DNA of 64,000 bases, taken from contig JBBDUI010000002.1 in NCBI GenBank assembly GCA_040903985.1, positions 454,038-518,037 of the forward strand. Reading direction: 5' to 3'. Position numbers and translations under genes: made by a program. The notes under the pieces were generated by a model. That model did not search any database, was not told where the DNA came from, and saw nothing but the letters and a program-made list of their open reading frames with translations. This DNA comes from Candidatus Saccharimonadales bacterium (GTDB lineage Bacteria; Patescibacteriota; Saccharimonadia; QS-5-54-17). This document shows, one piece after another, positions 51,618 through 64,000 of the stretch; the stretch's first letter is position 1; every line of letters starts with the position of its first letter.

Positions 51618-51761
51618 AGTATCTTCCTTGACTATATTTTACAGTATACGTCAACCAGCTGACAAAGCTTAGGGAAGTTCATCTTGTGTGCAAGATAGCG
51701 AAACCAGTAAGTGTAGATAAAAACTATCCCGCTCTTAGGCGGGTGTGGGTGGGATAAGTGT

Positions 51762-51837
51762 GGTGGGGGTGGCTGGAATCGAACCAGCGACCAATTAGTT
51801 ATGAGCCAACTGCTCTAACCGCTGAGCTACACCCCCG
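51762..51837 (-). tRNA. tRNA with CAU anticodon (elongator Met or Ile2/lysidine type), CCA encoded
   Basis: Reverse complement folds as a cloverleaf. Acceptor GGGGGTG/CACCCCC, anticodon stem GTTGG/CTAAT, loop CTCATAA, T arm GCTGG-TTCGATT-CCAGC. Confidence 0.8.
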
Positions 51838-53609: not shown

Positions 53610-54450
53610 TTAGCGGTTAGTAAGGCGGTCTGACTTGTGAACAGCGTAACCAACTACTGCTAGCACGAAGAATATGGCCAGTAAATTCACGGCTGTTGTC
53701 TCGTCAGTCTCTGCGGTAATGCTAGTGTCCGGTAATCCCGGTGTAGCCGATGCATCAGCAGTAGCTGTACATGTCGGCCCAGTGATGGTGTTGCTGTCTA
53801 AGGTGATTTCGGCGGTACCATCAAGTGCGCGGCCATCGAGTGTGGCACCGGTGGCGAAAGTTATGCTAGTACTAGCCAGAACGTTGCCGACAAACTCAGT
53901 ACCTGCGTCAAATGTAGCGCTGCTGACCACACGCCACCAGACGTTACACGCTTGACCGCCGCCGGTAAAGACGATGTTAGCGGTACTTCCAGTGGTCACC
54001 AAGCTGCTGGCTGATTTGAAGATCCAGACGTCGGTAGCCGCACCGTTGAGGGTAAGGGTTCCAGTAAGCTCAAAAGCATCGGCACAGTAGACACCCGCTA
54101 CCAAGTTCTCTCCGACCAAATCCTTGGTACCGGCATAGGTGGTATCACAGGTCTGTGAGCCGAGGGCAGTAAAGGCTGCACCACGGTCGGCTTGAGCAGA
54201 AAGAGCCGTGCCATTAGCATCGTGAACTGTACCGCCCAAGGTGACGCTGCCGAAACCAGTGGTATGAGGGGCTGATGCCGACATTACCACTGATAGTAGT
54301 GGGTCCGGTATTGGTGACCTCAGAGCCGGCTAGTATGGAGAAGCTAGCGGCTGTTCCGAGTCCTGGTGAAGTGGCAGCTTGGGCGACTGGGACTAGAGTA
54401 ACGAACGTTAATATTATCGAAGCGATACTGAGTTTCAAAAGAGCTTTCAT
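53610..54450 (-). pseudogene. ice-binding-like (DUF3494) surface protein with LPDTS + TM + basic tail sorting signal, split by a frameshift at a G4/C4 run near 54267-54270
   Basis: ORF 54214-54450 carries a signal peptide plus AASFSILAGSEVTNTGPTTISGNVGISP. ORF 53610-54290 continues HTTGFGSVTLGGTVHDANG... in another frame. Deleting one C from CCCC restores GNVGISPHTTGFG. The C-terminus is LPDTS...LLAIFFVLAVVGYAVHKSDR. Confidence 0.5.
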
Positions 54451-54623
54451 GTAGTATATTCATTTCTAGTATCTGCTTATGTATATTGTTAGTTTAATTC
54501 TACCTCTTTTCTGGTATTTTCTCAATTTAATTGATCGATGAATATAACAAAACAAGTAGCCCCACAGAATCAATTTCTACTAGCCAAGAGCGTAGTTAAT
54601 GGAAAGCGGGCTGAGAGGGCACT

Positions 54624-55139
54624 CTACTGCTCTTTAATGAGCTTGACTGCCGCCCTACAAGTACTATCAAGCCTATCTAGAATGGGTACATTAGGACAGT
54701 CCTGGGAGAAGCGCCTACGAATGTACCTTTCGTTACCAAAACCTTTTTCAATTCCTACTACTAGGTTAATCCCGTCTCTCTCATGCTTGAGCTTAGCCTC
54801 AGCTAGTTCAAACCTTGATGTTTGAGCGTAAGCTCTAGAAAATCCTCTCTCATCTGGATCTCCGGCTTCGGCCTGACATGCCAGCCAAAACATTACTGCG
54901 CCAGTTTTAGCTGCGCGTTTAAGGTATTCCGTCTCCCAGTCGACTTGTTTTTCGTATACAAACGTACCTTCTGGGTATTCTCTTCTCGGCGAAGCAATAG
55001 TAATCCCGGATGTAATACCACTAATGATATCAATGGCTTTCTCCTGCCAATCTTCTGCGCCTTGTATCGGTCCGGCTAGGAATAGAACGGGAGTCTCAGT
55101 ATTTACGATCTCAGGCGGTTTGATTACTTCTGTAGCCAT
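54624..55139 (-). CDS. hypothetical protein, possibly nucleoside 2-deoxyribosyltransferase-like fold (start moved to M12)
   Basis: PVLFLAGPIQGAEDW and a later T..FELAEA resemble the NDT/Rcl family G-rich loop and catalytic Glu region. Weak. Confidence 0.3.
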   Translation of the reverse strand: MATEVIKPPEIVNTETPVLFLAGPIQGAEDWQEKAIDIISGITSGITIASPRREYPEGTFVYEKQVDWETEYLKRAAKTGAVMFWLACQAEAGDPDERGFSRAYAQTSRFELAEAKLKHERDGINLVVGIEKGFGNERYIRRRFSQDCPNVPILDRLDSTCRAAVKLIKEQ

Positions 55140-55300
55140 TAAACTGAGTATAGCAAAGAGGTAGCTATACATAGATAAGATTCGGTCTAGGAACCGGGTC
55201 TTCGGTGATAAGTGTCCAACTTGGTAGACGCGATTGTATTCGAACTTTGTTCGCTAGCGGCCTAATATAGGCAATCTGCACTTAAGGGTTAGCGATAGGG

Positions 55301-55957
55301 ATGGGTCTAGAACTGTATAATAGTAGCATGATAAAAGTGTCATATGTAGAAATCAGCCAGAAAGATAAGAGCCGCATAGAGGTGGCTCTGCCAATATGGC
55401 TACAAGAGGTGAGAGAACTCCTGCCACAGGTACCTGAAGTTATAGAAGTCATCTTCGATAATCAATATCTTATCAAGATTACCGGTACGGGTGGATTTGC
55501 CTTAGATAAGGATAAGATCGCACTAGCATTTGACCCTGCTTTCACTAACAAGAATTTACAGTTCAATAATCTGCGCGGAAGCTTCTATCATGAGTGCTTC
55601 CACTTAGTACAAGGCTGGGTGGGTGGAGTAGCCGGAGGCGAGATATCGGCTATCGAGGATGCTTTAATGGAAGGTTCGGCCACTGTTTTCGAGCGGGAAC
55701 GTACAGGTACAAAGCCGCCTTGGAGCGACTATTCCGATATAAAGAATATAGATGAGAAGTTGGCTACGATTAAAGAGTTAGGAGCTAACTATGATTGGCA
55801 GAAGTGGAAGTTCTATGACCCCGAGACTAATACACGTTGGATACTGTATAAAGTAGGTGTTTACCTTACCGAGAAAATCTTGGATAATAACCCAGAATTA
55901 ACTATTGAGGATGTAGCTGGCATGAAGGTTGCGGGTATGCTTGATGCTGCCGATTGA
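55301..55957 (+). CDS. predicted Zn-dependent metallopeptidase (HExxH; DUF2268-like)
   Basis: FYHECFHLVQG contains HExxH with a downstream Glu (MEGSA). Confidence 0.4.
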   Translation: MGLELYNSSMIKVSYVEISQKDKSRIEVALPIWLQEVRELLPQVPEVIEVIFDNQYLIKITGTGGFALDKDKIALAFDPAFTNKNLQFNNLRGSFYHECFHLVQGWVGGVAGGEISAIEDALMEGSATVFERERTGTKPPWSDYSDIKNIDEKLATIKELGANYDWQKWKFYDPETNTRWILYKVGVYLTEKILDNNPELTIEDVAGMKVAGMLDAAD

Positions 55958-55983
55958 TCCATTTCTTTATGTATACTTAACCC

Positions 55984-56444
55984 ATGAATAATCTAGATGA
56001 TTACGCCGTAGATTTATACGAAAACTATGAAGCTGGAGTTCGGAAGCTGGCCGAACTAGTTGCTAACAAGAAAGTGGTCGGTGTGGGCGAATCGACGCAT
56101 GGAACTCATGAATTCTTCCAGCTCAAAGCTGATTTGTTTGTGGAGCTTCACCAAAAACAAACCTGGCTAGCTAACAACATTTATGGGAGAATTGCTTCAT
56201 GGGTCACTATGCTAGCGAAATGGATCCAAATTGGGGAGAACCGACAGCTTCTGAGAGCAAGCTCGCAGAGGTACCGGAAGAAATCAGGGAGTTGGCGCAG
56301 TGCCTTTTTAGGGGGTTTGATAGCATGGCGCATTTGGACTCAATCAATGCAGAGCACGGTATCAGAGTTGCCGCTGCCATCGATGCGCTTGTACAGAAAA
56401 GGATAGTTGAAGCTCTAGCGCAAACTACGAAAGCTCACGATTAG
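55984..56444 (+). pseudogene. short gene remnant in two frames; N-terminal part resembles the start of erythromycin-esterase-like (Ere/ChaN-type) proteins
   Basis: VVGVGESTHGTHEFF resembles the VVALGE.SH motif. The reading frame shifts near 56199, and the combined length is far shorter than family members. Confidence 0.25.
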
Positions 56445-56463
56445 AAACGTTCTCAACTGAGAC

Positions 56464-56499
56464 AAACAGAAACCACCCATCTCTGGGTGGTTTCTGTTT
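56464..56499. terminator. strong hairpin closing the minus-strand candidate defence operon (bidirectional)
   Basis: AAACAGAAACCACCCA-TCTC-TGGGTGGTTTCTGTTT, a 16-bp perfect stem between convergent genes. Confidence 0.55.
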
Positions 56500-56666
56500 A
56501 CTTGGTAGAGCAGACAGGTCTGGAACCCCCAACAGAGGTAAATGAGACAAATGAGACACCTAAAAAAGGCTTGTCTCAAAAAGTTGGCTCTTAGGTTAAA
56601 ATATAGCGTAAGAAGTTTACGTATGAAACTGACTAAAAACGATTTCAACTCACTACAATACCTAAG

Positions 56667-57338
56667 CTAGCTTACCATTGGTTCAGTTCCATTTTCTTCA
56701 ACTATTTCCATAGTGATCTCGTTTGCTACAAGATCTTTATAAAGCCACGGCCAGTCATCCAGCTTATTTTTTGTAGCTTGTTCAATTCGGTCTATTTCCT
56801 CATTGTATTTGTCTTTAAGTCTTTGGTAGTTAGTTTCTGCTCGATTGCGCAGGTCGCCGGTTTCCGCTAACCTTGGTTTTGCGTATTCCAGGTAAGACTT
56901 TTTAAAGTCTTCGTATAGAAAATCTGGGTTTATTATTACCAACTTTTTGTCAGCATATCTCACTAAATGAGTATCATCCCTGTCGCCACGCCTAGTTATG
57001 CCTACCTTACCCTTTGTTACAAAACTGTGAGCAATACCATTTCTAATCAATTCTCTTCCTATGATTCCGAAGGCCTCGTACCTCGAGTCAATATTTTTCA
57101 GATAATTCTTACAGTAGTGTTCGAAAGCAAACGAACCATTAACTTCTTGGCCTTCCTGTGGCTGGCGTAATAAGAAGCCAAGAAATTCGATACCCGAACA
57201 GAGAGCGCTTGTCATTAAATATGAAGCATTACCTGGGTGATTATCCCTAGGGATTTTGTCTTTGATAGTTTTAATGTCGCTAAGTAGATAGCCGTCAATA
57301 TATTTATCAAGAAAGCTATCAAGTATATTTATCTGCAT
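56667..57338 (-). CDS. hypothetical protein with R-x4-H (HEPN-like) motif; candidate effector
   Basis: IGRELIRNGIAHSF contains RNxxxH as in HEPN RNase active sites. Otherwise unrecognised. Confidence 0.35.
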   Translation of the reverse strand: MQINILDSFLDKYIDGYLLSDIKTIKDKIPRDNHPGNASYLMTSALCSGIEFLGFLLRQPQEGQEVNGSFAFEHYCKNYLKNIDSRYEAFGIIGRELIRNGIAHSFVTKGKVGITRRGDRDDTHLVRYADKKLVIINPDFLYEDFKKSYLEYAKPRLAETGDLRNRAETNYQRLKDKYNEEIDRIEQATKNKLDDWPWLYKDLVANEITMEIVEENGTEPMVS

Positions 57339-57354
57339 TAGCTATAAGTATAGC

Positions 57355-58548
57355 TTACAGTATAATATCTCGACCATCTTTGCCTTTGATGGGGTAGGAG
57401 CTCTTTTCTTTGTTTGTCTGGCTACTTGTTTGCTTTGATTTCAAATTCTTGCTCTTCATAACTAATTTCTTGATGTCTTCTTCGTTCTCGTAAGCCCGGA
57501 CTCTTCCGCTTAAATAGCCGAGTCTATAAGTGATGCCGTCACTAGTTAGCCGCCAGTTGGTATCATTAAGTGCTTTATTGACTAGCTTCTTCAAGGTTTT
57601 CCTGCTGTCATAGTCATCTCGGTCGTTCTTGCCGTCTAAACAGCTAAATCCAATAAAGACATCACGTCCCATTTCGGGTTTATCTAGACTAAATTCAATG
57701 TATCCGGCTTTTTCTAAGACTGGGCTTAGTATTTCGGATAGCTCCGGAATCTTTAACTTTTTGATTTGAGCCACAGCATCATAAATGTGCTTATTATCTT
57801 CTTTTTCTTTAAGTTCTTTGTCGAGTTGCACCATACCTTCTAATCTGTGCTTAGCATCGATGTGTTCTTGACGAACCTTTTCGTCCAAGAGACAGAAAGC
57901 TCTGCGGTCGTCTTCAAAATCTGGGTCTGGCTTCTCTTTTTTACGAATCAGATCCAACTTATCTTGATAACTGTGCTGACATTTAGGGCAGCTGTACTTA
58001 GTTTTGATAGCAGTTTTCAGACGAGTAGTCCTTTCTTCCATAATTGCTTTGCATTTAGGGCAGTAGGTGTGCCGGCGCTCCCATTCGGCTCCGTCTTCCC
58101 AAAAGGCACTGTTTTTATCGCAGTGCGGGCACTTGAGCATGAATAGCACTTCTTCGGGATCATCGTACTTATAGTCTTCTCCACGATTCATCAGGGTTTT
58201 ATCAATAATCCGTAGGCCTTGCTTGCCACAGTGCTGGCAATTTGGTTCAACTGATAGCCGGGAAGAACTGATTTGTAAGTCTTTTGCTTCATCTTCCGCT
58301 ATCCACTTGGCGATTGTCTCGTCACGCTTGTAGTAGCGATCAACAAGAGCGTTGCCAACCACCATCATATAGATCCAATTCAAGTGGAACGTGCTACGAA
58401 ATGAGTCTGGTTTTTCATCCGGCATGATTTTGAACCATTCATCGCGGAATTGAAGAAAGTACTTAAAGTCTCGGCGAGCAAAATCAACAGTTATCCGATC
58501 ATAGCGGTCTTCATATTCTTTAAATTTTTTAGGATGCGCATAGTCCAT
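57355..58548 (-). CDS. hypothetical protein with two predicted zinc ribbons (four CxxC pairs)
   Basis: CQHCG...CPHCD and CPKCK...CPKCQ, each pair spaced about 25 residues apart. Lys/Glu-rich, and no enzymatic motif is recognised. Confidence 0.45.
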   Translation of the reverse strand: MDYAHPKKFKEYEDRYDRITVDFARRDFKYFLQFRDEWFKIMPDEKPDSFRSTFHLNWIYMMVVGNALVDRYYKRDETIAKWIAEDEAKDLQISSSRLSVEPNCQHCGKQGLRIIDKTLMNRGEDYKYDDPEEVLFMLKCPHCDKNSAFWEDGAEWERRHTYCPKCKAIMEERTTRLKTAIKTKYSCPKCQHSYQDKLDLIRKKEKPDPDFEDDRRAFCLLDEKVRQEHIDAKHRLEGMVQLDKELKEKEDNKHIYDAVAQIKKLKIPELSEILSPVLEKAGYIEFSLDKPEMGRDVFIGFSCLDGKNDRDDYDSRKTLKKLVNKALNDTNWRLTSDGITYRLGYLSGRVRAYENEEDIKKLVMKSKNLKSKQTSSQTNKEKSSYPIKGKDGRDIIL

Positions 58549-58569
58549 TAACTTATACTAATCCTGTGA

Positions 58570-59589
58570 TTACTCTGCTTCAATGAGGGGCTTATACCAT
58601 TTTGCCAAAGCTTCAAAGCTCGCAAAAGTCTGCGGTACCGGATTGTTGGATATAAACTTGGCTTCCCAATACTGGTTCCAATACGCCTCAATTGATCGCC
58701 GAGGATGTTTGGCAATAAATGAATCATAAAAACTATCCAGTATGTCGTAATGGTGCGTATGAATAAAAGGCTCCCAGGTTTCTCGGAGTTTGTCTTGATC
58801 TGCTCCGGGCCGGTTAATAATTTCGGTTTGTTCCATCGCCCTGTCGTTGTTATCGCCCCAGCCTTTCTTTAGCAAATCAATGGCTTCTTTGTCGGTAGTG
58901 GGAGCGCTATACCCGAAAGCTGTAAATATAAAACAACCCTTAAAATAAAACCGAGCTGCCTCCCACTCACGTTTAATAAAACTATCTGACTGATAGTCTT
59001 TGTTCTCAACCGGATAGAGCAACTTGGAAGGCTTAAATGGCTTGCGACACCGACTACATGGTAGACCGGCAATACCGCTAGTGTTATGTTTCTCGCAGAA
59101 ACCTACAGTCACGTTTCCATGTAAGAAGAATAGTTTCGGGAAGCTTGTGGTAATACCAAGTTTAGCTAGCCGGATTCGGGATTGCATCAAAAATGGGTCC
59201 CAGTTGAAGGTAAAGATCGCATCTTTATCACGCAAAGACAGGTTTATGATGTCGTACAGGTTGGGCTTATCAGGTAGCTCAAGCTCCGAAAAATATTCAC
59301 GTACCAATGAATCAATACTACTTAAACTATCCGATGAGCCCAGGTTGAAGAGTTGTGAGTAAGCAGCCTCAAAATCTTGCGTAGCCAATTCTTTTAGGTT
59401 ATTAGGAAACAAGTCTACAAGTTTCAAATTTTCTGCCACATCGCGAAGTAGCGGTACCGGCCGTCCATTCCTATCGCCATTAGGTAGAGCGGCTTTGCTT
59501 GCTCCGGCACCGAGTAGAAGTATGTGTGGTTTTCCGTGGAACGGATTAGCAATTTCTTGCTGAACACTAACTTCGTTATCTGATGTCAT
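58570..59589 (-). CDS. SIR2-like domain protein (SIR2_2/DUF4020-type, defence-associated NADase-like)
   Basis: HILLLGAGASKA (GAGxS), IFTFNWDPF (compare the TTNYD motif), and FFLHGN (conserved His). 4-nt overlap with the upstream ImmA gene. Confidence 0.7.
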   Translation of the reverse strand: MTSDNEVSVQQEIANPFHGKPHILLLGAGASKAALPNGDRNGRPVPLLRDVAENLKLVDLFPNNLKELATQDFEAAYSQLFNLGSSDSLSSIDSLVREYFSELELPDKPNLYDIINLSLRDKDAIFTFNWDPFLMQSRIRLAKLGITTSFPKLFFLHGNVTVGFCEKHNTSGIAGLPCSRCRKPFKPSKLLYPVENKDYQSDSFIKREWEAARFYFKGCFIFTAFGYSAPTTDKEAIDLLKKGWGDNNDRAMEQTEIINRPGADQDKLRETWEPFIHTHHYDILDSFYDSFIAKHPRRSIEAYWNQYWEAKFISNNPVPQTFASFEALAKWYKPLIEAE

Positions 59590-60098
59590 AGCTTGTTCAA
59601 CAACCCCGTACTAGTAATGCGCCACCAAAAAGCTTCTTCACTTACCGCTAAGTGCTTAATCAAGCCAGCAGTATCGCCACGAAATTTCTTGATGTCTTCC
59701 TTTATCAAATTTAGTGGCATTATTAGTTCAGCAGCAAACGCATTAGCTTCAACTTCAGGCACCCTAGAATCATCGAAGTCAATTGAAGCTCCGGAATGGA
59801 CATGCCCCATATAGAGATGCCCGAATTCGTGTGCAACAGAAAACTTCTGCCGATTGACAGAAGTTTTTTTATTAAAGGCGATATCGATATCTTGACCGTC
59901 TTTATGTGCAATTGCGTAAACAGTACTAGGTAGTTTATCGGTTCCGTAAAATCTTATCCCAGGATGATCTTTTGTGATTACACCAACCAGATCGTTAATT
60001 TTAATTGGTGTCGCAATAATACCAGCACGCTTAATAAGTTGTCGGGCGGAGTTGTGACAACCGCTTATTCGGGCTTTGTTTTTAAATTCCTCCTCCAT
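59586..60098 (-). CDS. ImmA/IrrE-family zinc metallopeptidase (COG2856)
   Basis: HEFGHLYMGH is an HExxH motif in a protein of about 170 aa. It directly follows an XRE HTH gene. Confidence 0.75.
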   Translation of the reverse strand: MEEEFKNKARISGCHNSARQLIKRAGIIATPIKINDLVGVITKDHPGIRFYGTDKLPSTVYAIAHKDGQDIDIAFNKKTSVNRQKFSVAHEFGHLYMGHVHSGASIDFDDSRVPEVEANAFAAELIMPLNLIKEDIKKFRGDTAGLIKHLAVSEEAFWWRITSTGLLNKL

Positions 60099-60434
60099 TC
60101 ACTTTTTCCTCTGGCTTTTCATCCATTCTATATAATTCATAACACCCTTCACGTCTTCTTCGCTAAGGTCTTCATCTGCGCGAAGCGCGATACTGACATC
60201 CTTGTGCTCAGATGCAACCTCGCCATCCAGTAAATAGCCAATTGTCACCGATAACTTTCTACCAATCTCCTCTAATTCGTTGATTTGAACTCGACGTTCA
60301 CCGGATTCTATCAGCGATATAGCAGTACTAGATTTGTAGCCAACAGCTTCTGCAAGCTGTTGTTGTGTGAGTCCGACTCTAATACGAGCATCTCTTATTC
60401 GACCGCCGATTTTTTTATAGCGATTACTATCCAT
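60099..60434 (-). CDS. XRE-family helix-turn-helix transcriptional regulator
   Basis: RIRDARIRVGLTQQQLAEAVGYKSSTAISLIESGERRVQINEL is a canonical HTH_XRE. Confidence 0.8.
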   Translation of the reverse strand: MDSNRYKKIGGRIRDARIRVGLTQQQLAEAVGYKSSTAISLIESGERRVQINELEEIGRKLSVTIGYLLDGEVASEHKDVSIALRADEDLSEEDVKGVMNYIEWMKSQRKK

Positions 60435-60559
60435 GACTACCTCTTTTACGTATCTAAATGATAACTTAGGCGTGACTATTTGACAAACAATTTACGATTT
60501 TGATAAACTAATAATTACTAATAGTAAACCGCCCATTAGGGTAGCAGGAGGGATTTAAA

Positions 60560-60799
60560 ATGGCCAAGAAGAATGTCCATATTACCTACAGTAAAGACTC
60601 CAAAGACTGGGGAGTAAAAAGTCAAGGCGCGCATCGCGCTGCCAGCCGACACCAAACAAAGGCCGAAGCCACACAAGCTGGTCGTGAAATAGCCCGCAAC
60701 AACAAAGGTGAGCTTTTCATACACAATAAGGACAATAAAATATCGGACCGTGACAGTTACGGCAATGACCCGTTTCCACCGCGCGATAGAAAGCATTAG
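60560..60799 (+). CDS. DUF2188-family small protein
   Basis: VHI...DWGVK..GA.RA.S.H.TKAEA..AGREIA.N...EL.IH..D..I...DSYGNDP.PP matches DUF2188 spacing. Confidence 0.55.
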   Translation: MAKKNVHITYSKDSKDWGVKSQGAHRAASRHQTKAEATQAGREIARNNKGELFIHNKDNKISDRDSYGNDPFPPRDRKH

Positions 60800-60811
60800 G
60801 AGGCAGCTATT

Positions 60812-61729
60812 ATGCTCATCATAAAAAAGAGATGGATTCGTTCACTAAACAATAACCTACCCGGCGACCTTAGAGGTGGTGTCGTTAATATCGCTGTTAA
60901 GCTTGAATCTAACGAAAATGTTGCTCAAAAAATTGGCTTCGGGAAGAATCCGAAGATTGGTGACACACTCACACCTAAGCCGGTCGGTCCAGCCACTCGT
61001 TTTAACGCTCATGGTAGAGAAAAAATCTTACGAAACCGAGAAAAAGAGAAACTATATCGCACCCAAGAATGGACACGCGAGGAGTGGGCGGGTCGTGGCC
61101 AGACACGAACGGTAACTTCACTAGTGGATATTCCATATTACCGTTATCCTCGTGAGCACATTGATGGTTTTGATTTAGAGCTAACTATCAGAGAGTTTAA
61201 CGGACAGAAGCACATAGTATTAACTGAAGGTATTCGCTGGGATGACGGCAGCACAGAGAAGCTGATAACTGCCATCAATATCTTTTTAGAGGTGTTTGGA
61301 CAGGCAGAAATTCTAAATGAATCTCTAGAAGAAATCCCAAGTCCGGCTGAAATTCGCCGACTTAACTGGATTGTGCTTCCTAAGGGCGAAAAAATTACGC
61401 AAGAATCGTTGGATGAAATCTTGTCGAAGTCTAGACGCATTCGACCAGTACAAATGCTACGCCAGGAGCGCATTAGTTCATTTAATCCCGACATCCGTGC
61501 CATCGGCATGGGCGGCTTCACTGGCTATGTTGTCTATGTCTTCAAAAAGAAAGGAATCGCGGTCATGGAGAGTGTTAAGTATGGTAACGCCAGCTACATT
61601 ATCGCAGCCGACAATTGGGAGAAACTCTCCAAGATGACAAAACAGCAACTTCTGTCAAAAAGCCTAGTGCAGTCGCGTGAAACTCACACTAAAAAATGGT
61701 TTGCCCGCATCAAAAAGCTACTGGCTTAG
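60812..61729 (+). CDS. hypothetical protein (305 aa)
   Basis: ORF. No recognisable motif. Confidence 0.4.
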   Translation: MLIIKKRWIRSLNNNLPGDLRGGVVNIAVKLESNENVAQKIGFGKNPKIGDTLTPKPVGPATRFNAHGREKILRNREKEKLYRTQEWTREEWAGRGQTRTVTSLVDIPYYRYPREHIDGFDLELTIREFNGQKHIVLTEGIRWDDGSTEKLITAINIFLEVFGQAEILNESLEEIPSPAEIRRLNWIVLPKGEKITQESLDEILSKSRRIRPVQMLRQERISSFNPDIRAIGMGGFTGYVVYVFKKKGIAVMESVKYGNASYIIAADNWEKLSKMTKQQLLSKSLVQSRETHTKKWFARIKKLLA

Positions 61730-61923
61730 CGATTGGCGATGATATACTAAAATTACAATTCAACCTTAGGGAGAGGTACTCCCTGCGGACTCTCTGAGTT
61801 CCAGTGCGCCATATATCGCGAGATAAGCACTTACGCCCGCTGCGTGCAAGAAGCAGTAGACGTAAGTGCATTTTTAATTCTTGCGATGGAGGCACTATGT
61901 CTACAGAGATACAAAACATAATA

Positions 61924-62796
61924 CTAAACTAGGTCTCTGAAAAAGTTAATAATACTCTTCGTGTTCGACCACGCAAGACTGTAGTCAATAGCAAGAAGAC
62001 CAGCGACAGCTATCAAGGCACCAAATAAGCTCTTCACCTTGTGGTTTTCCATGAACCTGTAAATTTTCTTAGTACCAGTGGCAACAAGCCAAAAAGGGTT
62101 TGTGTAATGCCAGACATTCACGTCATTCTTTGTAATGTTTCGAGGTTGATTCTTTTGTAACTCTGCGAGCTTGATAAGCTCGTTAGCTGATTTTAGGTTT
62201 AATTCGATTGCTTTTCCAAATCCTTGACACTCTATATGCGGTGGAACTTGCATGCCTTGATATATAGCTTTTGAATCCCGCGATACGACCTGGCTAGGCG
62301 AACGCGCTTTTATATAGTCACCGATTGAAAAATCCACGTCTATATCATCAATTTTTTTCTTTAAAACATCATTACCAATAACTAACTCTAGTTGGATTTT
62401 CAGGTTACGCATTAACTCCTTCAAGGCTTCTAATTTATCGTTGGCCTCGTCAATGTCGAACCTTTTTGATGCATTACTTATGATATGTTGCCACATTTCA
62501 TCAAGAGTTTTTGTCTGCCAACCAGGATCGTAGCCGTCATTGAACACCCCAGCGCCACCCCATTCCGGATCAAACATCTGGCTTGTATTCGGGACTTCAT
62601 ATTCTTTGAAGTATAAATTCGCATGATAACCAGCCCAGGATCCAGACCAAGATTCATGGAGTCGATTGCATGTCTTTATTGTGTCTTTCGATACCATCGC
62701 TAAATACTCTTTCTCGCTTTGGAGAAAGTCTCTCAAGTTATCTAGTGCCGCATCGAGGCCCTGATTAGTTTTAGCTTTTTGAAATAAACTCTTCAT
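61924..62796 (-). CDS. hypothetical protein with C-terminal TM helix (start moved to MKSLFQ)
   Basis: ORF. Soluble N-terminal domain of about 260 aa, then SLFGALIAVAGLLAIDYSLAW. Confidence 0.4.
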   Translation of the reverse strand: MKSLFQKAKTNQGLDAALDNLRDFLQSEKEYLAMVSKDTIKTCNRLHESWSGSWAGYHANLYFKEYEVPNTSQMFDPEWGGAGVFNDGYDPGWQTKTLDEMWQHIISNASKRFDIDEANDKLEALKELMRNLKIQLELVIGNDVLKKKIDDIDVDFSIGDYIKARSPSQVVSRDSKAIYQGMQVPPHIECQGFGKAIELNLKSANELIKLAELQKNQPRNITKNDVNVWHYTNPFWLVATGTKKIYRFMENHKVKSLFGALIAVAGLLAIDYSLAWSNTKSIINFFRDLV

Positions 62797-62980
62797 ACAA
62801 TAAATATAACAGAGAAACAAACAAGATCTTACAACGATCACGGAACCCGGTCAGAAAATTTATCGTCCAGTCGCTATAGAAGGACAGGTCATACAGGGGT
62901 TAGCGTAAAAATTACAGATGTGCTTATAAAGCAACAAGACCAGGTCATGGAACCCGGTCTTGATCAGATTGTGTACTACT

Positions 62981-63055
62981 TGGTAGCGGGGGCAGGATTC
63001 GAACCTGCGACCTCCGGGTTATGAGCCCGACGAGCTGCCACTGCTCTACCCCGCG
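62981..63055 (-). tRNA. tRNA-Met (CAU) with initiator-like features
   Basis: Reverse complement is CGCGGGGTAGAGC...GGGCTCATAACCCGG...GGTTCGAATCC...CCCCGCTACCA. It has an unpaired 1:72 (C.U) pair and three consecutive G:C pairs at the anticodon-stem/loop junction. Confidence 0.75.
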
Positions 63056-63149: not shown

Positions 63150-63998
63150 AATGAAACGATTGACGATTCTCCTAGTTCTGTTGAGTCTTTCACTTAGTCT
63201 GTTTGGTGCGAGTCCAGTTCTAGCGGATAACGGTGAGTCTATACTGGAATTCCGGAGCGAAGTAAATATTAATGGTGATGGCCAGGCTGAGATTACCGAG
63301 ACTATTCGGTATGACTTCAACGGTAATGAGAGGCGGGGTATCTATCGTGACATACCGATTCGGTACGAGGCTGAGGATTCGAAGCGTCAATTTTATGAAG
63401 TGAAGCTCGACATACTAGACGTGACTCGCAATGGCAGTGCCGTACCGTACTTGGTGATAAATGAGGACACTTATACCCGACTACGTATCGGTGATAGGGA
63501 TGATACACGCAGTCGTGATATAGAGGAGTACGGCATAACCTACAGGCTCTATCCGGTAGCCTACCAATATGATGATGTAGATGCGGTCCAGCTCGATGTA
63601 GTGGGCAGCCGCTGGGAGATACCGATCAAATCAGTTAGCGTAGAGATTAGTCTGCCGTTTGCTACCACCGAGCGCGAATGTTTTGCGGGTGTATCGGGTA
63701 GTGCACTTAGAGATTGTAGGCTAACGGGGGATGAAGATTCTGTGATCATTACGGCTAATAGTCTCGCTACCGGGGAGGGAGTGACGGCCTACTTTGAGTT
63801 TGCGGAGGGGGTTTTCACTAATTATCTTGAAGCTCAAACCACTCCGTTTCCTTGGGTGTGGGTCGGTGTCGGGCTGGTGCTCTTTATGGTAGTAATCGGT
63901 GGATTAGGCGGAATCATCACTTCTCACATTCGCTACGTGTTACGGAAGCGGCGACAGCTGGTTATATCAGAGTATGAACCTCCAAAAGATTTAACCCC
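63150..63998 (+). CDS. DUF2207-family membrane protein (N-terminal part; continues beyond window)
   Basis: Not in the ORF track because there is no stop in the window. Signal peptide MKRLTILLVLLSLSLSLFG, then NINGDGQAEITETIRYDFNG...RRGIYRDIP typical of DUF2207. A TM helix lies near the window end. Confidence 0.5.
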
Positions 63999-64000
63999 AG

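What the first reader, a model, noticed from the sequence alone, without database searches (positions are those of the whole stretch)
54460..63055. AT-richer genomic island of about 8.5 kb abutting an initiator-like tRNA-Met gene
From about 54.5 kb to the tRNA at 62981-63055 the sequence is visibly more AT-rich than the rest of the window. The genes there are all non-housekeeping. They are an NDT-like protein, an HExxH protein, a frameshifted gene remnant, the SIR2 operon, a DUF2188 protein and two unknown 305-aa proteins. A tRNA 3' end is a classic integration hotspot. No integrase or att repeat is visible in the window, so this could be a decayed island.
Basis: partly seen in the sequence, partly recalled or inferred. 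Interest (0 to 1): 0.6.

Follow-up and report, generated by a model that had tools for sequence, protein, structure and literature searches.

The report
Decayed tRNA-fMet-linked defence island
An 8.5 kb stretch of foreign-looking, AT-richer DNA sits at the 3' end of the initiator tRNA gene of a tiny Saccharimonadales (CPR) genome; it has lost any integrase, keeps a worn-out copy of the tRNA end as an insertion scar, and carries several likely anti-phage genes, so it is an ordinary kind of island with partly uncharacterised cargo.

Summary
GC drops from 0.512 (1-54450) to about 0.42-0.45 across 54451-62980. Tetranucleotide usage there deviates by 9-15 SD, and still by 3-7.6 SD after removing the GC effect. 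GC returns to about 0.50 in core genes beyond the tRNA.

The tRNA at 62981-63055 (-) is a true initiator, and its 3' end faces the island. No recombinase gene is present. A 69-nt, 70%-identical copy of the tRNA 3' end plus its terminator hairpin lies at 55177-55245 in direct orientation (0 of 200 shuffles reach its score). It is at 55.2 kb, not 54.5 kb. A weaker second remnant lies at 56499-56527.

Distant relatives carry exact extra copies of the tRNA-fMet 3' end beside the gene, which suggests a recurrent integration site.

The cargo looks like defence genes:
- an HTH + M78 (ImmR/ImmA- or CapH/CapP-like) pair heading an operon with a SIR2-fold protein, a four-zinc-ribbon protein and an unknown protein
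- a divergent DUF2188 + unknown pair
- a modular protein whose relatives carry TIR, PNP or REase effector domains

SIR2-like homologs are 74-87% identical across phyla, while host core proteins find at most about 57%.

Verdict: an immobilised, horizontally acquired defence island. The kind is known; the cargo is moderately novel.

The parts
54451..54623 (.). AT-rich spacer (GC about 0.39) between the NDT-like stop codon and the start of the ice-binding-like gene. This is the compositional left edge of the island.
54624..55172 (-). Nucleoside 2-deoxyribosyltransferase-like protein (182 aa). It is compositionally atypical (GC3 z -3.4) but lies outside the att remnant. It is either the oldest island segment or an atypical native flank.
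   Evidence: Pfam PF15891, 31.6 bits; GC; 40% identical hit in a huge uncultured phage, LR756500.1
55177..55245 (-). Displaced, decayed copy of the tRNA-fMet 3' end (from the T-loop to CCA) plus about 45 nt of downstream sequence, including a weakened terminator hairpin. It is in the same orientation as the tRNA and is the putative distal att site.
   Evidence: 49/70 identical, SW score 24. It is the best hit in the whole window, above the real paralogous tRNA-Met (18). 0/200 block shuffles reach 24 (maximum 19)..
55301..55957 (+). DUF2268 predicted Zn-protease-like protein with an HExxH motif (HECFH)
   Evidence: Pfam PF10026, 33.6 bits; sequence
55984..56444 (+). Probable decayed gene: two overlapping ORFs in different frames (140 aa and 81 aa) with no family hit
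56464..56499 (.). Perfect 16-bp hairpin, a likely bidirectional terminator between the decayed plus-strand genes and the minus-strand operon
   Evidence: the repeat finder I5; -29 to -30.5 kcal/mol, z -6.3 to -6.9
56499..56527 (-). Tentative second remnant of the tRNA 3' end (22/29 identical, with CTACCAAGTA kept exactly), immediately followed by the hairpin, as in the relatives' extra copies
   Evidence: Score 15: reached in 12/1000 island-only same-strand shuffles, but in 48/200 whole-window shuffles.
56667..57338 (-). 223-aa protein of unknown family, the last gene of the operon
   Evidence: No hit in Pfam, PADLOC, PHROGs, NCBIfam or PDB; not found next to p339/p397 homologs elsewhere
57355..58548 (-). 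397-aa protein with an N-terminal helical bundle, four invariant CxxC pairs (zinc ribbons) and C-terminal alpha/beta domains. It is the conserved partner of the SIR2-like protein.
   Evidence: partner conservation in L081/82, L085/86 and L084
58570..59589 (-). 339-aa SIR2-fold protein with invariant GAG, N129/D131, H157-G158 and C178/C181; the likely NAD+-consuming effector
   Evidence: AF2 pLDDT 89.5; the top 31 Foldseek PDB hits are all Sir2/SIRT/ThsA/AVAST5/HAM-SIR2; invariant columns; more than 4,400 homologs, none annotated
59586..60098 (-). 170-aa M78 (ImmA/IrrE-type) zinc metallopeptidase. It consists of the peptidase domain only, with no GAF domain.
   Evidence: Pfam PF06114, 54 bits; PADLOC capP 67 bits, covering profile positions 7-136 of 242
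60099..60434 (-). 111-aa XRE-type HTH repressor (CapH/ImmR-like), the first gene of the operon
   Evidence: Pfam HTH_3; PADLOC capH 41.8 bits
60458..60509 (.). Back-to-back promoter-like hexamers (10/12 matches each) in the 125-nt divergent intergenic region. This is the putative shared control region.
   Evidence: consensus matches only; the total count is not above chance
60560..60799 (+). DUF2188 protein (PADLOC candidate PDC-S16), divergent from the HTH gene
   Evidence: Pfam 73.6 bits; PADLOC 102 bits; same divergent position in L081 and L084
60812..61729 (+). 305-aa protein of unknown family, co-transcribed with DUF2188
   Evidence: No family hit; 29% identical hit in a phage fragment, MT838181.1
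61924..62796 (-). 290-aa protein: a conserved N-terminal domain (about aa 40-215) plus a C-terminal transmembrane helix. In relatives the same N-domain is fused to Pycsar-type TIR, PNP nucleosidase or DpnII/MboI nuclease domains.
62935..62962 (-). 12-bp terminator hairpin 20 nt downstream of the tRNA
62981..63055 (-). Initiator tRNA-Met (CAU) with its 3' end facing the island. It is orthologous to the tRNA-fMet of other Saccharimonadales.

Best explanation
The region 54451-62980 is a horizontally acquired genomic island that is now immobile. It lies at the 3' end of the single initiator tRNA gene seen in this neighbourhood of a Candidatus Saccharimonadales (CPR/Patescibacteria) genome.

Origin (inferred). 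One or more integrative elements recombined into the T-loop-to-3'-end segment of the tRNA gene. Each event regenerated the tRNA and pushed the old 3' end, with its terminator, away from it. The recombinase genes were later lost and the displaced tRNA fragments decayed. The clear fragment is at 55177-55245 and a possible one is at 56499-56527. The part next to the tRNA (56.5-63.0 kb) is intact and probably under selection. The part between the two remnants (55.2-56.5 kb) is older and partly pseudogenised.

Cargo function (inferred from fold, HMM hits, fusion partners and conserved neighbourhoods; nothing was tested experimentally). The cargo is best read as anti-phage defence, in three modules:
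1. An HTH repressor plus an M78 peptidase head an operon that encodes a SIR2-fold NAD+-consuming effector, a four-zinc-ribbon partner (a likely sensor or adaptor) and a 223-aa unknown protein.
2. The same control region faces a divergent DUF2188 + 305-aa operon. This is the arrangement described for CapH/CapP-regulated 'DUF2188 + hypothetical' systems.
3. A 290-aa protein combines a conserved N-terminal domain with a membrane anchor, in the position where its relatives carry TIR, PNP or nuclease effector domains.

Proposed working (inferred). The repressor keeps the divergent promoters low. A stress or infection signal makes the peptidase cleave the repressor. The effectors then rise and abort infection, for the SIR2 module by depleting NAD+.
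For: Shown by computation:
- GC and k-mer discontinuity with sharp edges, flanked by core genes on both sides. The left flank holds Dus, DivIC, Grx, sortase and the ice-binding-like gene. The right flank holds tRNA-fMet, DUF2207, TilS, FtsH, MurJ and LepA.
- The tRNA 3' end faces the island.
- A direct, same-strand 69-nt copy of the T-loop-to-CCA segment plus the downstream hairpin is the best match in the window. It exceeds all 200 shuffles.
- The homology stops at the T-loop, read directly from the alignment.
- Relatives carry extra exact copies of the tRNA-fMet 3' end 124-350 nt downstream of the gene: three copies in L016 and two in L023.
- Island proteins have much closer relatives elsewhere than core proteins do. 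p339 is 74-87% identical to homologs, including one named Ktedonobacterales (76%) and one named Saccharibacteria (80%). p397 reaches 73-84%. By contrast, Dus reaches at most 57%, sortase at most 53%, and DUF2207 30%.
- None of 73 relatives' loci holds an island gene.
- p339 has a SIR2 fold and invariant motif residues.
- The p339+p397 pair recurs behind a cleavable repressor (S24 LexA/CI-like), and in L081/82 and L084 also with a divergent DUF2188. It sits in a defence island with type I R-M and Bub genes, or next to terminase genes and a tRNA-Leu 3' end. Serine recombinases lie nearby in L081/82. A closer p397 homolog (L226) also lies in a serine-recombinase/R-M element, though neither a repressor nor DUF2188 was called there.
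- capH, capP and PDC-S16 HMM hits.
- The p305b N-domain is fused to TIR, PNP and REase domains in homologs.

From the literature:
- The regenerated tRNA and its displaced fragment mark the ends of tDNA islands (PMC4383910 abstract).
- CapH/CapP-like pairs sit divergent from DUF2188 operons and from other putative defence operons (10.1101/2022.04.27.489752).
Against: - No recombinase is present.
- The att remnant is only 70% identical and lies 725 nt inside the compositional edge, so the NDT-like gene is not accounted for.
- The similarity extends about 45 nt beyond the tRNA end. A simple attP x attB model does not require this, and a local duplication would also produce it.
- The second remnant is not significant window-wide.
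- No close relative was available to show an empty site.
- At least one of the 'extra copies' in relatives (L016 unit 2 and L033) belongs to a conserved, apparently structured element rather than a plain scar.
- The M78 protein lacks the GAF domain that forms the ssDNA-sensing groove of CapP (PMC13228613).
- The SIR2 operon is co-directional with the regulators, not divergent.
- p339 and p397 hit no PADLOC model.
- No function of any cargo gene has been tested.
Confidence: 0.72

Rival explanations
1. The island is the leftover of a temperate phage. Its immunity region (ImmR/ImmA-like repressor and antirepressor protease, with back-to-back promoters) survives together with the 'moron' genes attached to it. 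The SIR2-p397 genes are co-transcribed with the repressor in the lysogen, in the way that rexAB is co-transcribed with lambda cI, and they serve superinfection exclusion. Structural genes, replication genes and the integrase have been deleted.
For: - The HTH, M78 and DUF2188 proteins all hit PHROG families.
- The M78 protein is ImmA-sized (170 aa) and sits in the same operon directly after the HTH gene.
- In L085/L086 the S24 repressor-p339-p397 module lies next to a terminase large subunit and a ParB-methyltransferase, and it abuts the 3' end of tRNA-Leu.
- 17 IMG/VR viral contigs encode p339 relatives.
- ImmR/ImmA control of prophages and ICEs is described in the literature.
Against: - There is no phage structural, replication or lysis gene, and no fragment of one, in the 8.5 kb.
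- There is no DNA or p339 match in 50,697 deposited phage genomes.
- The viral-contig relatives are only 35-44% identical and lack p397.
- In L081/82 the same module sits in a defence island with a serine recombinase, not in a prophage.
- This rival concerns the vehicle and is compatible with the main explanation.
Confidence: 0.3
2. There was no site-specific integration. The stretch is a flexible 'hotspot' between conserved core genes that is filled by homologous recombination after DNA uptake. The 55.2 kb repeat is a decayed local duplicate of the tRNA gene and its terminator, not an att site.
For: - The repeat includes about 45 nt beyond the tRNA end, with the same hairpin family, as a duplication would give.
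- There is no recombinase.
- The NDT-like gene outside the repeat is also atypical in composition, and so, in GC3, is the DUF2207 gene on the other side of the tRNA.
- The elements that carry p339 elsewhere use large serine recombinases, which do not leave tRNA-fragment repeats.
Against: - The homology begins at the T-loop.
- Nothing of the tRNA 5' half remains.
- Relatives show exact 19-21-nt 3'-end copies in tandem beside the same tRNA.
- A possible second remnant lies in the same orientation at a module boundary.
Confidence: 0.2
3. The region is native. It is a lineage-specific block of fast-evolving accessory genes whose lower GC reflects relaxed selection and AT-biased mutation, and the tRNA adjacency is a coincidence.
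For: - Small CPR genomes have variable regions.
- The neighbourhood Dus / tRNA-Met / DivIC ... tRNA-fMet is loosely conserved, and the interval before the tRNA-fMet holds unannotated small ORFs in relatives too.
Against: - The edges are sharp on both sides.
- The k-mer deviation persists after GC normalisation.
- p339 and p397 are 57-87% identical to proteins in other phyla, while core proteins of this genome find at most about 57%.
- A tRNA-fragment repeat is present.
- The genes are of mobile-element types.
Confidence: 0.06

Closest known systems
tDNA-integrated genomic islands (as catalogued by Islander; PMC4383910)
   Same: An intact tRNA gene sits at one end with its 3' end facing the island. 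A displaced fragment of the tRNA 3' part lies in direct orientation at the far side. The composition is atypical, the cargo is accessory, and there is a possible tandem accretion of two segments.
   Different: There is no integrase. The displaced fragment is only 70% identical and does not coincide with the compositional edge. The target is the initiator tRNA of a CPR bacterium.
Defence islands / core defence hotspots
   Same: Several unrelated candidate defence genes are packed together next to a conserved anchor gene. Homologs of the cargo lie beside type I R-M, Bub, TIR proteins and recombinases in other genomes.
   Different: Apart from the regulator pair, the only PADLOC match among the island genes is the unvalidated candidate PDC-S16 (DUF2188). 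Everything else rests on fold, fusion partners and neighbourhood.
CapH/CapP (and ImmR/ImmA, DdrO/IrrE) protease-cleaved repressor pairs
   Same: An XRE HTH gene is adjacent to an M78 zinc peptidase gene, with HMM hits to both capH and capP. A DUF2188 operon lies divergent from them, as in the 'DUF2188 + hypothetical' systems of Lau et al..
   Different: The peptidase is 170 aa and lacks the C-terminal GAF domain, which makes it ImmA-sized. The effector genes SIR2-p397-p223 lie downstream in the same operon rather than only on the opposite strand. In ICEBs1 an integrase follows immA; here a SIR2-like gene does.
SIR2-domain anti-phage effectors (ThsA of Thoeris, DSR1/2, SIR2-HerA, SPARSA, AVAST5, HAM-SIR2)
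   Same: p339 has a SIR2 Rossmann fold with the GAGxS, N..D and HG motifs in the canonical order and a Cys-rich insert. It lies in a defence-type neighbourhood.
   Different: There is no Pfam SIR2 or SIR2_2 hit and no PADLOC hit. It has no SLOG, HerA, Argonaute or STAND partner. Its conserved partner is a 397-aa four-zinc-ribbon protein with no structural relative. TM-scores to known SIR2 structures are only 0.33-0.47.
lambda cI-rexAB type prophage exclusion modules
   Same: The effector genes are co-transcribed directly downstream of a cleavable repressor (S24 CI/LexA-like in L081, L084 and L085; HTH + M78 here), with a divergent small gene in the 'cro' position.
   Different: There is no sequence or fold relation to RexAB, and no prophage around the module in this window.

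Membership tests
tDNA-integrated genomic island | Intact tRNA gene at one end, with its 3' end adjoining the island | tested here: met
   tRNA-Met(CAU) at 62981-63055 on the minus strand; the island lies at lower coordinates
tDNA-integrated genomic island | Displaced fragment of the tRNA 3' part as a direct repeat at the distal end | tested here: met
   55177-55245, same strand, 49/70 identical, score 24 against a shuffle maximum of 19. Caveats: it is degenerate, it lies 725 nt inside the GC edge, and it extends past the tRNA end.
tDNA-integrated genomic island | Integrase (tyrosine or serine recombinase) gene inside the island | tested here: not met
   No recombinase domain in any ORF (Pfam, PHROGs, NCBIfam, PADLOC). 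All gaps are under 225 nt. There is none in the 10 kb beyond the tRNA.
tDNA-integrated genomic island | Composition unlike the host genome | tested here: met
   GC 0.42-0.45 against 0.51; tetranucleotide deviation +9 to +15 SD
tDNA-integrated genomic island | Absent from the same site in related genomes (empty site) | tested here: inconclusive
   No relative above about 57% protein identity was found. None of 73 distant loci has an island gene. L033 has the tRNA-fMet 119 nt from the sortase operon, but in a different order.
CapH/CapP regulator pair | Adjacent XRE-HTH repressor and M78 zinc metallopeptidase genes | tested here: met
   PF01381 and PF06114; PADLOC capH 41.8 bits and capP 67.4 bits
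CapH/CapP regulator pair | CapP C-terminal GAF domain, which with the peptidase domain forms the ssDNA-binding groove | tested here: not met
   The protein is 170 aa and matches capP profile positions 7-136 of 242 only. The domain description is taken from PMC13228613.
CapH/CapP regulator pair | Located upstream of the regulated operon and on the opposite strand | tested here: met
   This holds for DUF2188-p305a (divergent, 125-nt gap). The SIR2 operon instead lies downstream on the same strand.
CapH/CapP regulator pair | Damage- or ssDNA-stimulated cleavage of the repressor | not testable with these tools
   Needs biochemistry
SIR2-domain NADase defence effectors | SIR2 (sirtuin) Rossmann fold | tested here: met
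   AF2 pLDDT 89.5; the top 31 Foldseek PDB hits are all SIR2 family members, with E-values down to 6e-7 and probability 1.00; TM-scores 0.33-0.47
SIR2-domain NADase defence effectors | Conserved NAD-binding and catalytic motifs (GAGxS, N/D, catalytic His) | tested here: inconclusive
   G27-A28-G29, N129, D131 and H157-G158 are invariant in 33 homologs and occur in the canonical order. Residue-level equivalence to the catalytic Asn and His of ThsA or Sir2 was not aligned.
SIR2-domain NADase defence effectors | Recognised by the SIR2 / SIR2_2 or defence-system HMMs | tested here: not met
   No Pfam hit even at E<=10, and no PADLOC, NCBIfam or PDB-sequence hit
SIR2-domain NADase defence effectors | NAD+ hydrolysis and phage protection | not testable with these tools
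   Needs experiments
PADLOC candidate PDC-S16 (DUF2188) | Match to the family HMM | tested here: met
   PDLC04941 and PDLC04942, 102 bits; PF09954, 73.6 bits

The most novel reading that the evidence does not exclude
The SIR2-fold protein and its four-zinc-ribbon partner form a widespread anti-phage system that has been neither named nor tested. More than 4,400 p339 relatives and about 580 p397 relatives were found, and none is annotated. The pair travels directly behind a cleavable repressor (HTH + M78, or S24 CI/LexA-like), and in most contexts seen it faces a DUF2188-led operon. Here it protects an ultra-small episymbiotic CPR bacterium. In addition, the 3' end of the initiator tRNA would be a recurrent integration site in Saccharimonadales, marked in relatives by tandem tRNA-end copies and by a conserved, possibly structured element of about 130-190 nt.
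Probability: 0.4. Interest if true: 0.6.

Novelty: new member of a known kind. Interest (0 to 1): 0.42.

Why it matters
The island itself is a textbook type, so it mainly serves as correct annotation: foreign DNA, immobilised, at the initiator tRNA.

Three aspects carry some value.

1. It documents horizontally acquired defence cargo, and a tRNA-linked insertion site, in a Saccharimonadales genome of under 1 Mb. In a genome this small each accessory gene is costly, and little is known about phage defence in this group.
2. It points to a large, unannotated SIR2-like family with a conserved zinc-ribbon partner and a conserved regulatory layout. This is a concrete candidate for experimental defence-system discovery.
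3. It adds a case in which an ImmA-sized, GAF-less peptidase occupies the CapP position next to a DUF2188 operon. That bears on how these regulators sense their signal.

Tried and rejected
- **Close-relative synteny.** The genome-contig scan with Dus found nothing above 57% identity. The metagenome scan with the sortase gave one hit at 46% in that scan's own table and 53% by tblastn. The protein search with the DUF2207 fragment gave one 30% hit. Exact look-ups return only the same genome, and both assemblies are 100% identical to the window. A true empty-site test was therefore impossible.
- **Repeat at 54.5 kb.** None was found. There are only chance-level inverted matches (score 14).
- **A second initiator tRNA beyond the window.** The tRNA(CAU) at about 65.3 kb has a different sequence, sits next to TilS and has a paired 1:72 end. 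It is probably tRNA-Ile2 and not a duplicate.
- **The two '305-aa' proteins as paralogs.** Rejected (E = 2).
- **p305b as a hidden integrase.** Rejected. It belongs to a modular family with TIR, PNP and REase fusions and has a C-terminal membrane helix.
- **Rfam family for the tRNA-downstream units in relatives.** None was found.
- **attP-bearing viral contigs.** The 19-mer that includes the AGT junction gave no hit. The 17-mer is too widely shared among tRNA-fMet genes to be informative.
- **DNA-level matches of the island in plasmids or phages.** None.
- **Direct repeats of tRNA-Asn or tRNA-Leu ends in L076 and L085.** None within the sequence held.
- **Fold of p397.** No significant PDB match.
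- **Possible erythromycin-esterase origin of the decayed ORF.** I recalled that its N-terminus (GESTHGTHEF) resembles erythromycin-esterase-type proteins. Pfam gave no hit, so this remains an unverified lead.

Full report
**Source and setting.** The window is 100% identical to contig JBBDOY010000002.1 (739 kb) of assembly GCA_040876815.1, and to a Logan contig from run SRR27977662. One of its proteins is named by NCBI as coming from a 'Candidatus Saccharimonadales bacterium'. The nearest Dus homologs among 185,579 species representatives are Patescibacteria, mostly Saccharibacteria, at no more than 57% identity. The host is therefore a small-genome CPR bacterium with no close sequenced relative in the collections I could search.

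**The observation.**
- In 1-kb windows, GC is 0.47-0.55 from 1 to 54 kb, 0.39-0.44 from 55 to 63 kb, and rises again after the tRNA.
- At 300-nt resolution the left edge falls between 54150-54449 (0.54) and 54300-54599 (0.40). That point is the start codon of the ice-binding-like gene.
- Segment values are 0.512 for 1-54450, 0.426 for 54451-55175, 0.445 for 55246-56498 and 0.419 for 56528-62980.
- Against 51 host ORFs (GC 0.519 +/- 0.025), island genes have z-scores of -2.7 to -5.4. The exceptions are DUF2188 and the decayed ORFs.
- The tetranucleotide distance of 4-kb windows from the host part is 9-15 SD above background. After dividing out each window's own GC it is still 3.1-7.6 SD above background. 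The anomaly is therefore not only a matter of GC.
- In the source contig, the 10 kb beyond the tRNA have GC 0.47-0.55 and encode DUF2207, an HD protein, TilS, FtsH, MurJ and LepA.
- The left flank encodes Dus, DivIC, glutaredoxin, ArsR, a sortase and an ice-binding-like protein.
- The low-GC block is thus bracketed by ordinary core genes on both sides.

**The tRNA.** ARAGORN and Rfam agree on tRNA-Met(CAU) at 62981-63055 on the minus strand. Its 3' end therefore points into the island. The sequence shows a C1xU72 mismatch, an A11:U24 pair and three G:C pairs closing the anticodon stem. These are the bacterial initiator hallmarks. It aligns at 94% column identity with the 75-nt tRNA(CAU) of five relatives. 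A 12-bp terminator hairpin follows 20 nt downstream.

**Att-like repeats.**
- A repeat search found two degenerate copies of the tRNA 3' end inside the block, both on the same strand as the tRNA.
- I scanned the whole window on both strands with the last 30 nt of the tRNA plus 51 nt downstream.
- The best hit anywhere is 55177-55245, with score 24. The background is 7.9 +/- 1.5 per 200-nt window, and the real paralogous tRNA-Met at 51.7 kb scores 18.
- In 200 composition-preserving shuffles of the 62.8 kb, the maximum score averaged 14.0 +/- 1.1 and never exceeded 19.
- The match is 49/70 identical.
- It begins at the T-loop (GTTCGAAT), runs through CTACCA, and continues for about 45 nt. That stretch includes a weakened version of the same hairpin.
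- Nothing of the tRNA 5' half remains.
- The second copy, at 56499-56527, is 22/29 identical and keeps CTACCAAGTA exactly. A perfect 16-bp hairpin follows it directly.
- Its score of 15 is reached in 48/200 whole-window shuffles but in only 12/1000 island-only, same-strand shuffles. I treat it as tentative.
- No repeat exists near 54.5 kb.
- Read in the tRNA's direction, the layout is:
  1. tRNA + terminator
  2. intact cargo (6.4 kb)
  3. possible tRNA end + terminator
  4. decayed cargo (1.25 kb)
  5. clear tRNA end + hairpin
  6. NDT-like gene
  7. host genes
- This is the pattern expected from accretion at a tDNA, where the regenerated tRNA and its displaced fragment mark the island ends (PMC4383910).

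**Relatives.**
- Only distant relatives could be compared.
- In several of them, Dus, an elongator tRNA-Met, DivIC and the tRNA-fMet lie within a few kb of each other.
- In L033 the tRNA-fMet is 119 nt from the sortase/ice-binding operon, although on its other side.
- None of the 73 loci contains a homolog of any island gene.
- L016 has three exact copies of CCTGCCCCCGCTACCA and L023 has two. The extra copies lie 124-350 nt downstream of the tRNA, and in L016 and L023 each is followed by its own hairpin. L033 has a degenerate copy at +154.
- This suggests that the tRNA-fMet 3' end is a recurrent recombination site in this order.
- One caution applies. One unit in L016 and the unit in L033 are homologous to each other over about 130-190 nt, with a hairpin that shows a compensatory C:G to T:A change, and they have no Rfam match. 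At least some of these units are conserved elements rather than inert scars.

**No recombinase.** Pfam, PHROGs, NCBIfam and PADLOC scans of all island ORFs found no integrase, transposase or resolvase. Intergenic gaps are all under 225 nt. The 10 kb beyond the tRNA has none either.

**Cargo: the SIR2 operon (60434 to 56667, minus strand).**
- *Regulators.* The operon begins with an XRE HTH protein (PADLOC capH, 41.8 bits) and a 170-aa M78 peptidase (capP, 67.4 bits; profile positions 7-136 of 242). CapP proper has a C-terminal GAF domain that, with the peptidase domain, forms the ssDNA-binding groove (PMC13228613). This protein is too short to have one and is the size of ImmA.
- *p339.* It has no Pfam hit even at E<=10, yet it has more than 4,400 homologs, none of them annotated. 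A 33-sequence alignment gives an AlphaFold model with pLDDT 89.5. The first 31 Foldseek hits in the PDB are all Sir2, SIRT1/2/6, ThsA, AVAST5 or HAM-SIR2, with probability 0.90-1.00 (1.00 for nearly all), E-values from 6e-7 to 1.4e-2, and TM-scores of 0.31-0.47. Invariant residues G27-A28-G29, N129, D131, H157-G158 and C178/C181 lie in the order of the sirtuin motifs.
- *p397.* It has about 580 homologs, four invariant CxxC pairs, and a confident model (pLDDT 83) with no significant structural match.
- *p223.* It has no detectable relative in any library.

**Cargo context elsewhere.**
- The p339+p397 pair recurs at 74-78% and 57-60% identity in L081/82 and L085/86, and more distantly in L084. 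Each time it lies directly behind an S24 (LexA/CI-like) repressor.
- In L081/82 and L084, DUF2188 lies divergent upstream.
- L081/82 is a plain defence island, with a serine recombinase, type I R-M, and a DUF2188-led Bub/ubiquitin-like operon.
- In L085/86 the module lies beside a terminase and a ParB-methyltransferase, and it abuts the 3' end of tRNA-Leu.
- L226 places a 71%-identical p397 homolog, preceded by an unannotated 359-aa gene, in a serine-recombinase/HinfI R-M element.
- In the Saccharibacteria locus L076, a p339 homolog (80%) sits next to tRNA-Asn and a serine recombinase, with different partners.
- A Ktedonobacterales genome has a 76% homolog near TIR proteins.
- So p339 is 74-87% identical across phyla, while this genome's core proteins find at most about 57% (Dus), 53% (sortase) or 30% (DUF2207). 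This is the strongest single argument for horizontal acquisition.

**Cargo: the other modules.**
- DUF2188 (PADLOC candidate PDC-S16, 102 bits) and a 305-aa unknown protein are transcribed divergently from the HTH gene. The 125-nt gap between them holds the two best promoter-like matches of the island, placed back to back.
- Lau et al. report that CapH/CapP-like pairs lie upstream of, and opposite to, the operons they regulate. Those operons include 'DUF2188 + hypothetical protein' and ubiquitin-like systems. The arrangement here fits that description.
- The gene next to the tRNA is more likely 290 aa than 305 aa. It belongs to a family of about 490 cluster representatives that share an N-terminal domain (about residues 40-215).
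- In relatives that domain is followed by a CAP12/Pycsar-type TIR domain (P0346, P0362, P0287), by a PNP_UDP_1 nucleosidase domain (P0292), or by a DpnII/MboI nuclease domain. Here it is followed by a transmembrane helix.
- Swapping of effectors on a constant domain in this way is typical of abortive-infection-type defence proteins.
- The two '305-aa' proteins are unrelated to each other.
- The older segment holds a DUF2268 HExxH protein and two overlapping ORFs that look like a broken gene.
- The NDT-like gene (PF15891, just above threshold) has a 40% match in a 462-kb uncultured phage.

**Interpretation.**
- The data fit a horizontally acquired island that was built at the initiator tRNA, has since lost its recombinase, and is retained for its defence cargo.
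- Shown by computation: the compositional break, the gene content, the tRNA-end repeat, the SIR2 fold, the conserved neighbourhoods, and the cross-phylum identities.
- Inferred: that insertion was site-specific, that two events occurred, that the cargo defends against phages, and that the HTH/M78 pair controls one or both operons through repressor cleavage.
- The vehicle could have been a temperate phage whose immunity region survives (rival 1).
- Alternatively, the block could have been built by homologous recombination at a flexible site, with the repeat being a decayed tRNA duplicate (rival 2).
- A purely native origin is unlikely (rival 3).

**Open points.**
- The similarity between the 55.2 kb remnant and the present tRNA flank extends beyond the tRNA end.
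- The NDT-like gene and, in GC3, the DUF2207 gene are also atypical in composition.

**Verdict.** The island is a new member of a well-known kind. Its SIR2-like/zinc-ribbon module and the modular 290-aa protein are uncharacterised and are reasonable candidates for experimental work. Interest is moderate.

Noticed in passing
window 53610-54450 (-): The ice-binding-like gene (PF11999) bordering the island is split into two overlapping ORFs in different frames. ORF 54214-54450 holds a signal peptide plus profile positions 1-24, and ORF 53610-54290 holds positions 30-208. This is either a frameshifted pseudogene or an assembly error.
   Followed up: partly
L016 17972-18163 (-) and L033 12345-12543 (-): A homologous element of about 130-190 nt lies just 3' of the tRNA-fMet in two distant Saccharimonadales genomes. 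It ends in a decayed tRNA 3' half that carries the same internal deletion in both. One hairpin shows a compensatory C:G to T:A change. There is no Rfam match. It could be a small structured RNA or a miniature integrative element.
   Followed up: partly
L016 17976-18360; L023 17259-17415: Exact tandem copies of the last 16-21 nt of the tRNA-fMet lie within 350 nt of the gene (three in L016, two in L023), each followed by its own hairpin.
   Followed up: partly
L033 10759-10944 (-): Group I intron (RF00028, 72 bits, E 1.8e-16) in a relative, in the region where other relatives have the elongator tRNA-Met upstream of DivIC.
   Followed up: no
window 51761-51836, 62981-63055; L104 7465-7539 (about window 65258-65332, + strand): Three CAU-anticodon tRNA genes lie within 14 kb: an elongator Met, the initiator, and a third next to TilS that is probably tRNA-Ile2. 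The same trio is clustered near Dus in relatives L016 and L007.
   Followed up: partly
window 62838-62852 and 62945-62959: The motif GGAACCCGGTC, part of the tRNA terminator hairpin, occurs twice, 107 nt apart, between the tRNA and the first island gene. A third, degenerate copy lies in the 55.2 kb remnant.
   Followed up: partly
window 63007 and about 42414 (ends of Logan contig SRR27977662_268960): An independent assembly of the same genome breaks inside tRNA-fMet and inside tRNA-Pro. This is probably k-mer sharing with other community members rather than evidence of excision.
   Followed up: no
L085 5584-8001; L086 9330-12220: The S24 repressor, SIR2-like and 397-aa module sits at the edge of a prophage-like region (terminase, ParB-methyltransferase). 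In L085 it abuts the 3' end of tRNA-Leu.
   Followed up: partly
L081 7099-9162: DUF2188 heads a Multi_ubiq-ThiF-BubE (ubiquitin-like defence) operon that is divergent from the repressor-SIR2-like-p397 module. DUF2188 therefore leads different effector operons in different genomes.
   Followed up: no
window 63150-64000 (+), continuing in L104 7934-9646: The DUF2207 membrane protein on the right flank (570 aa) has low GC3 (0.40, z -3.2). Its only homolog in the 5.8-billion-protein search was 30% identical.
   Followed up: no
window 60458-60509: Two overlapping, oppositely oriented promoter-like sites (10/12 matches each) share the TTGACA/TGTCAA core between the HTH gene and the DUF2188 gene.
   Followed up: no
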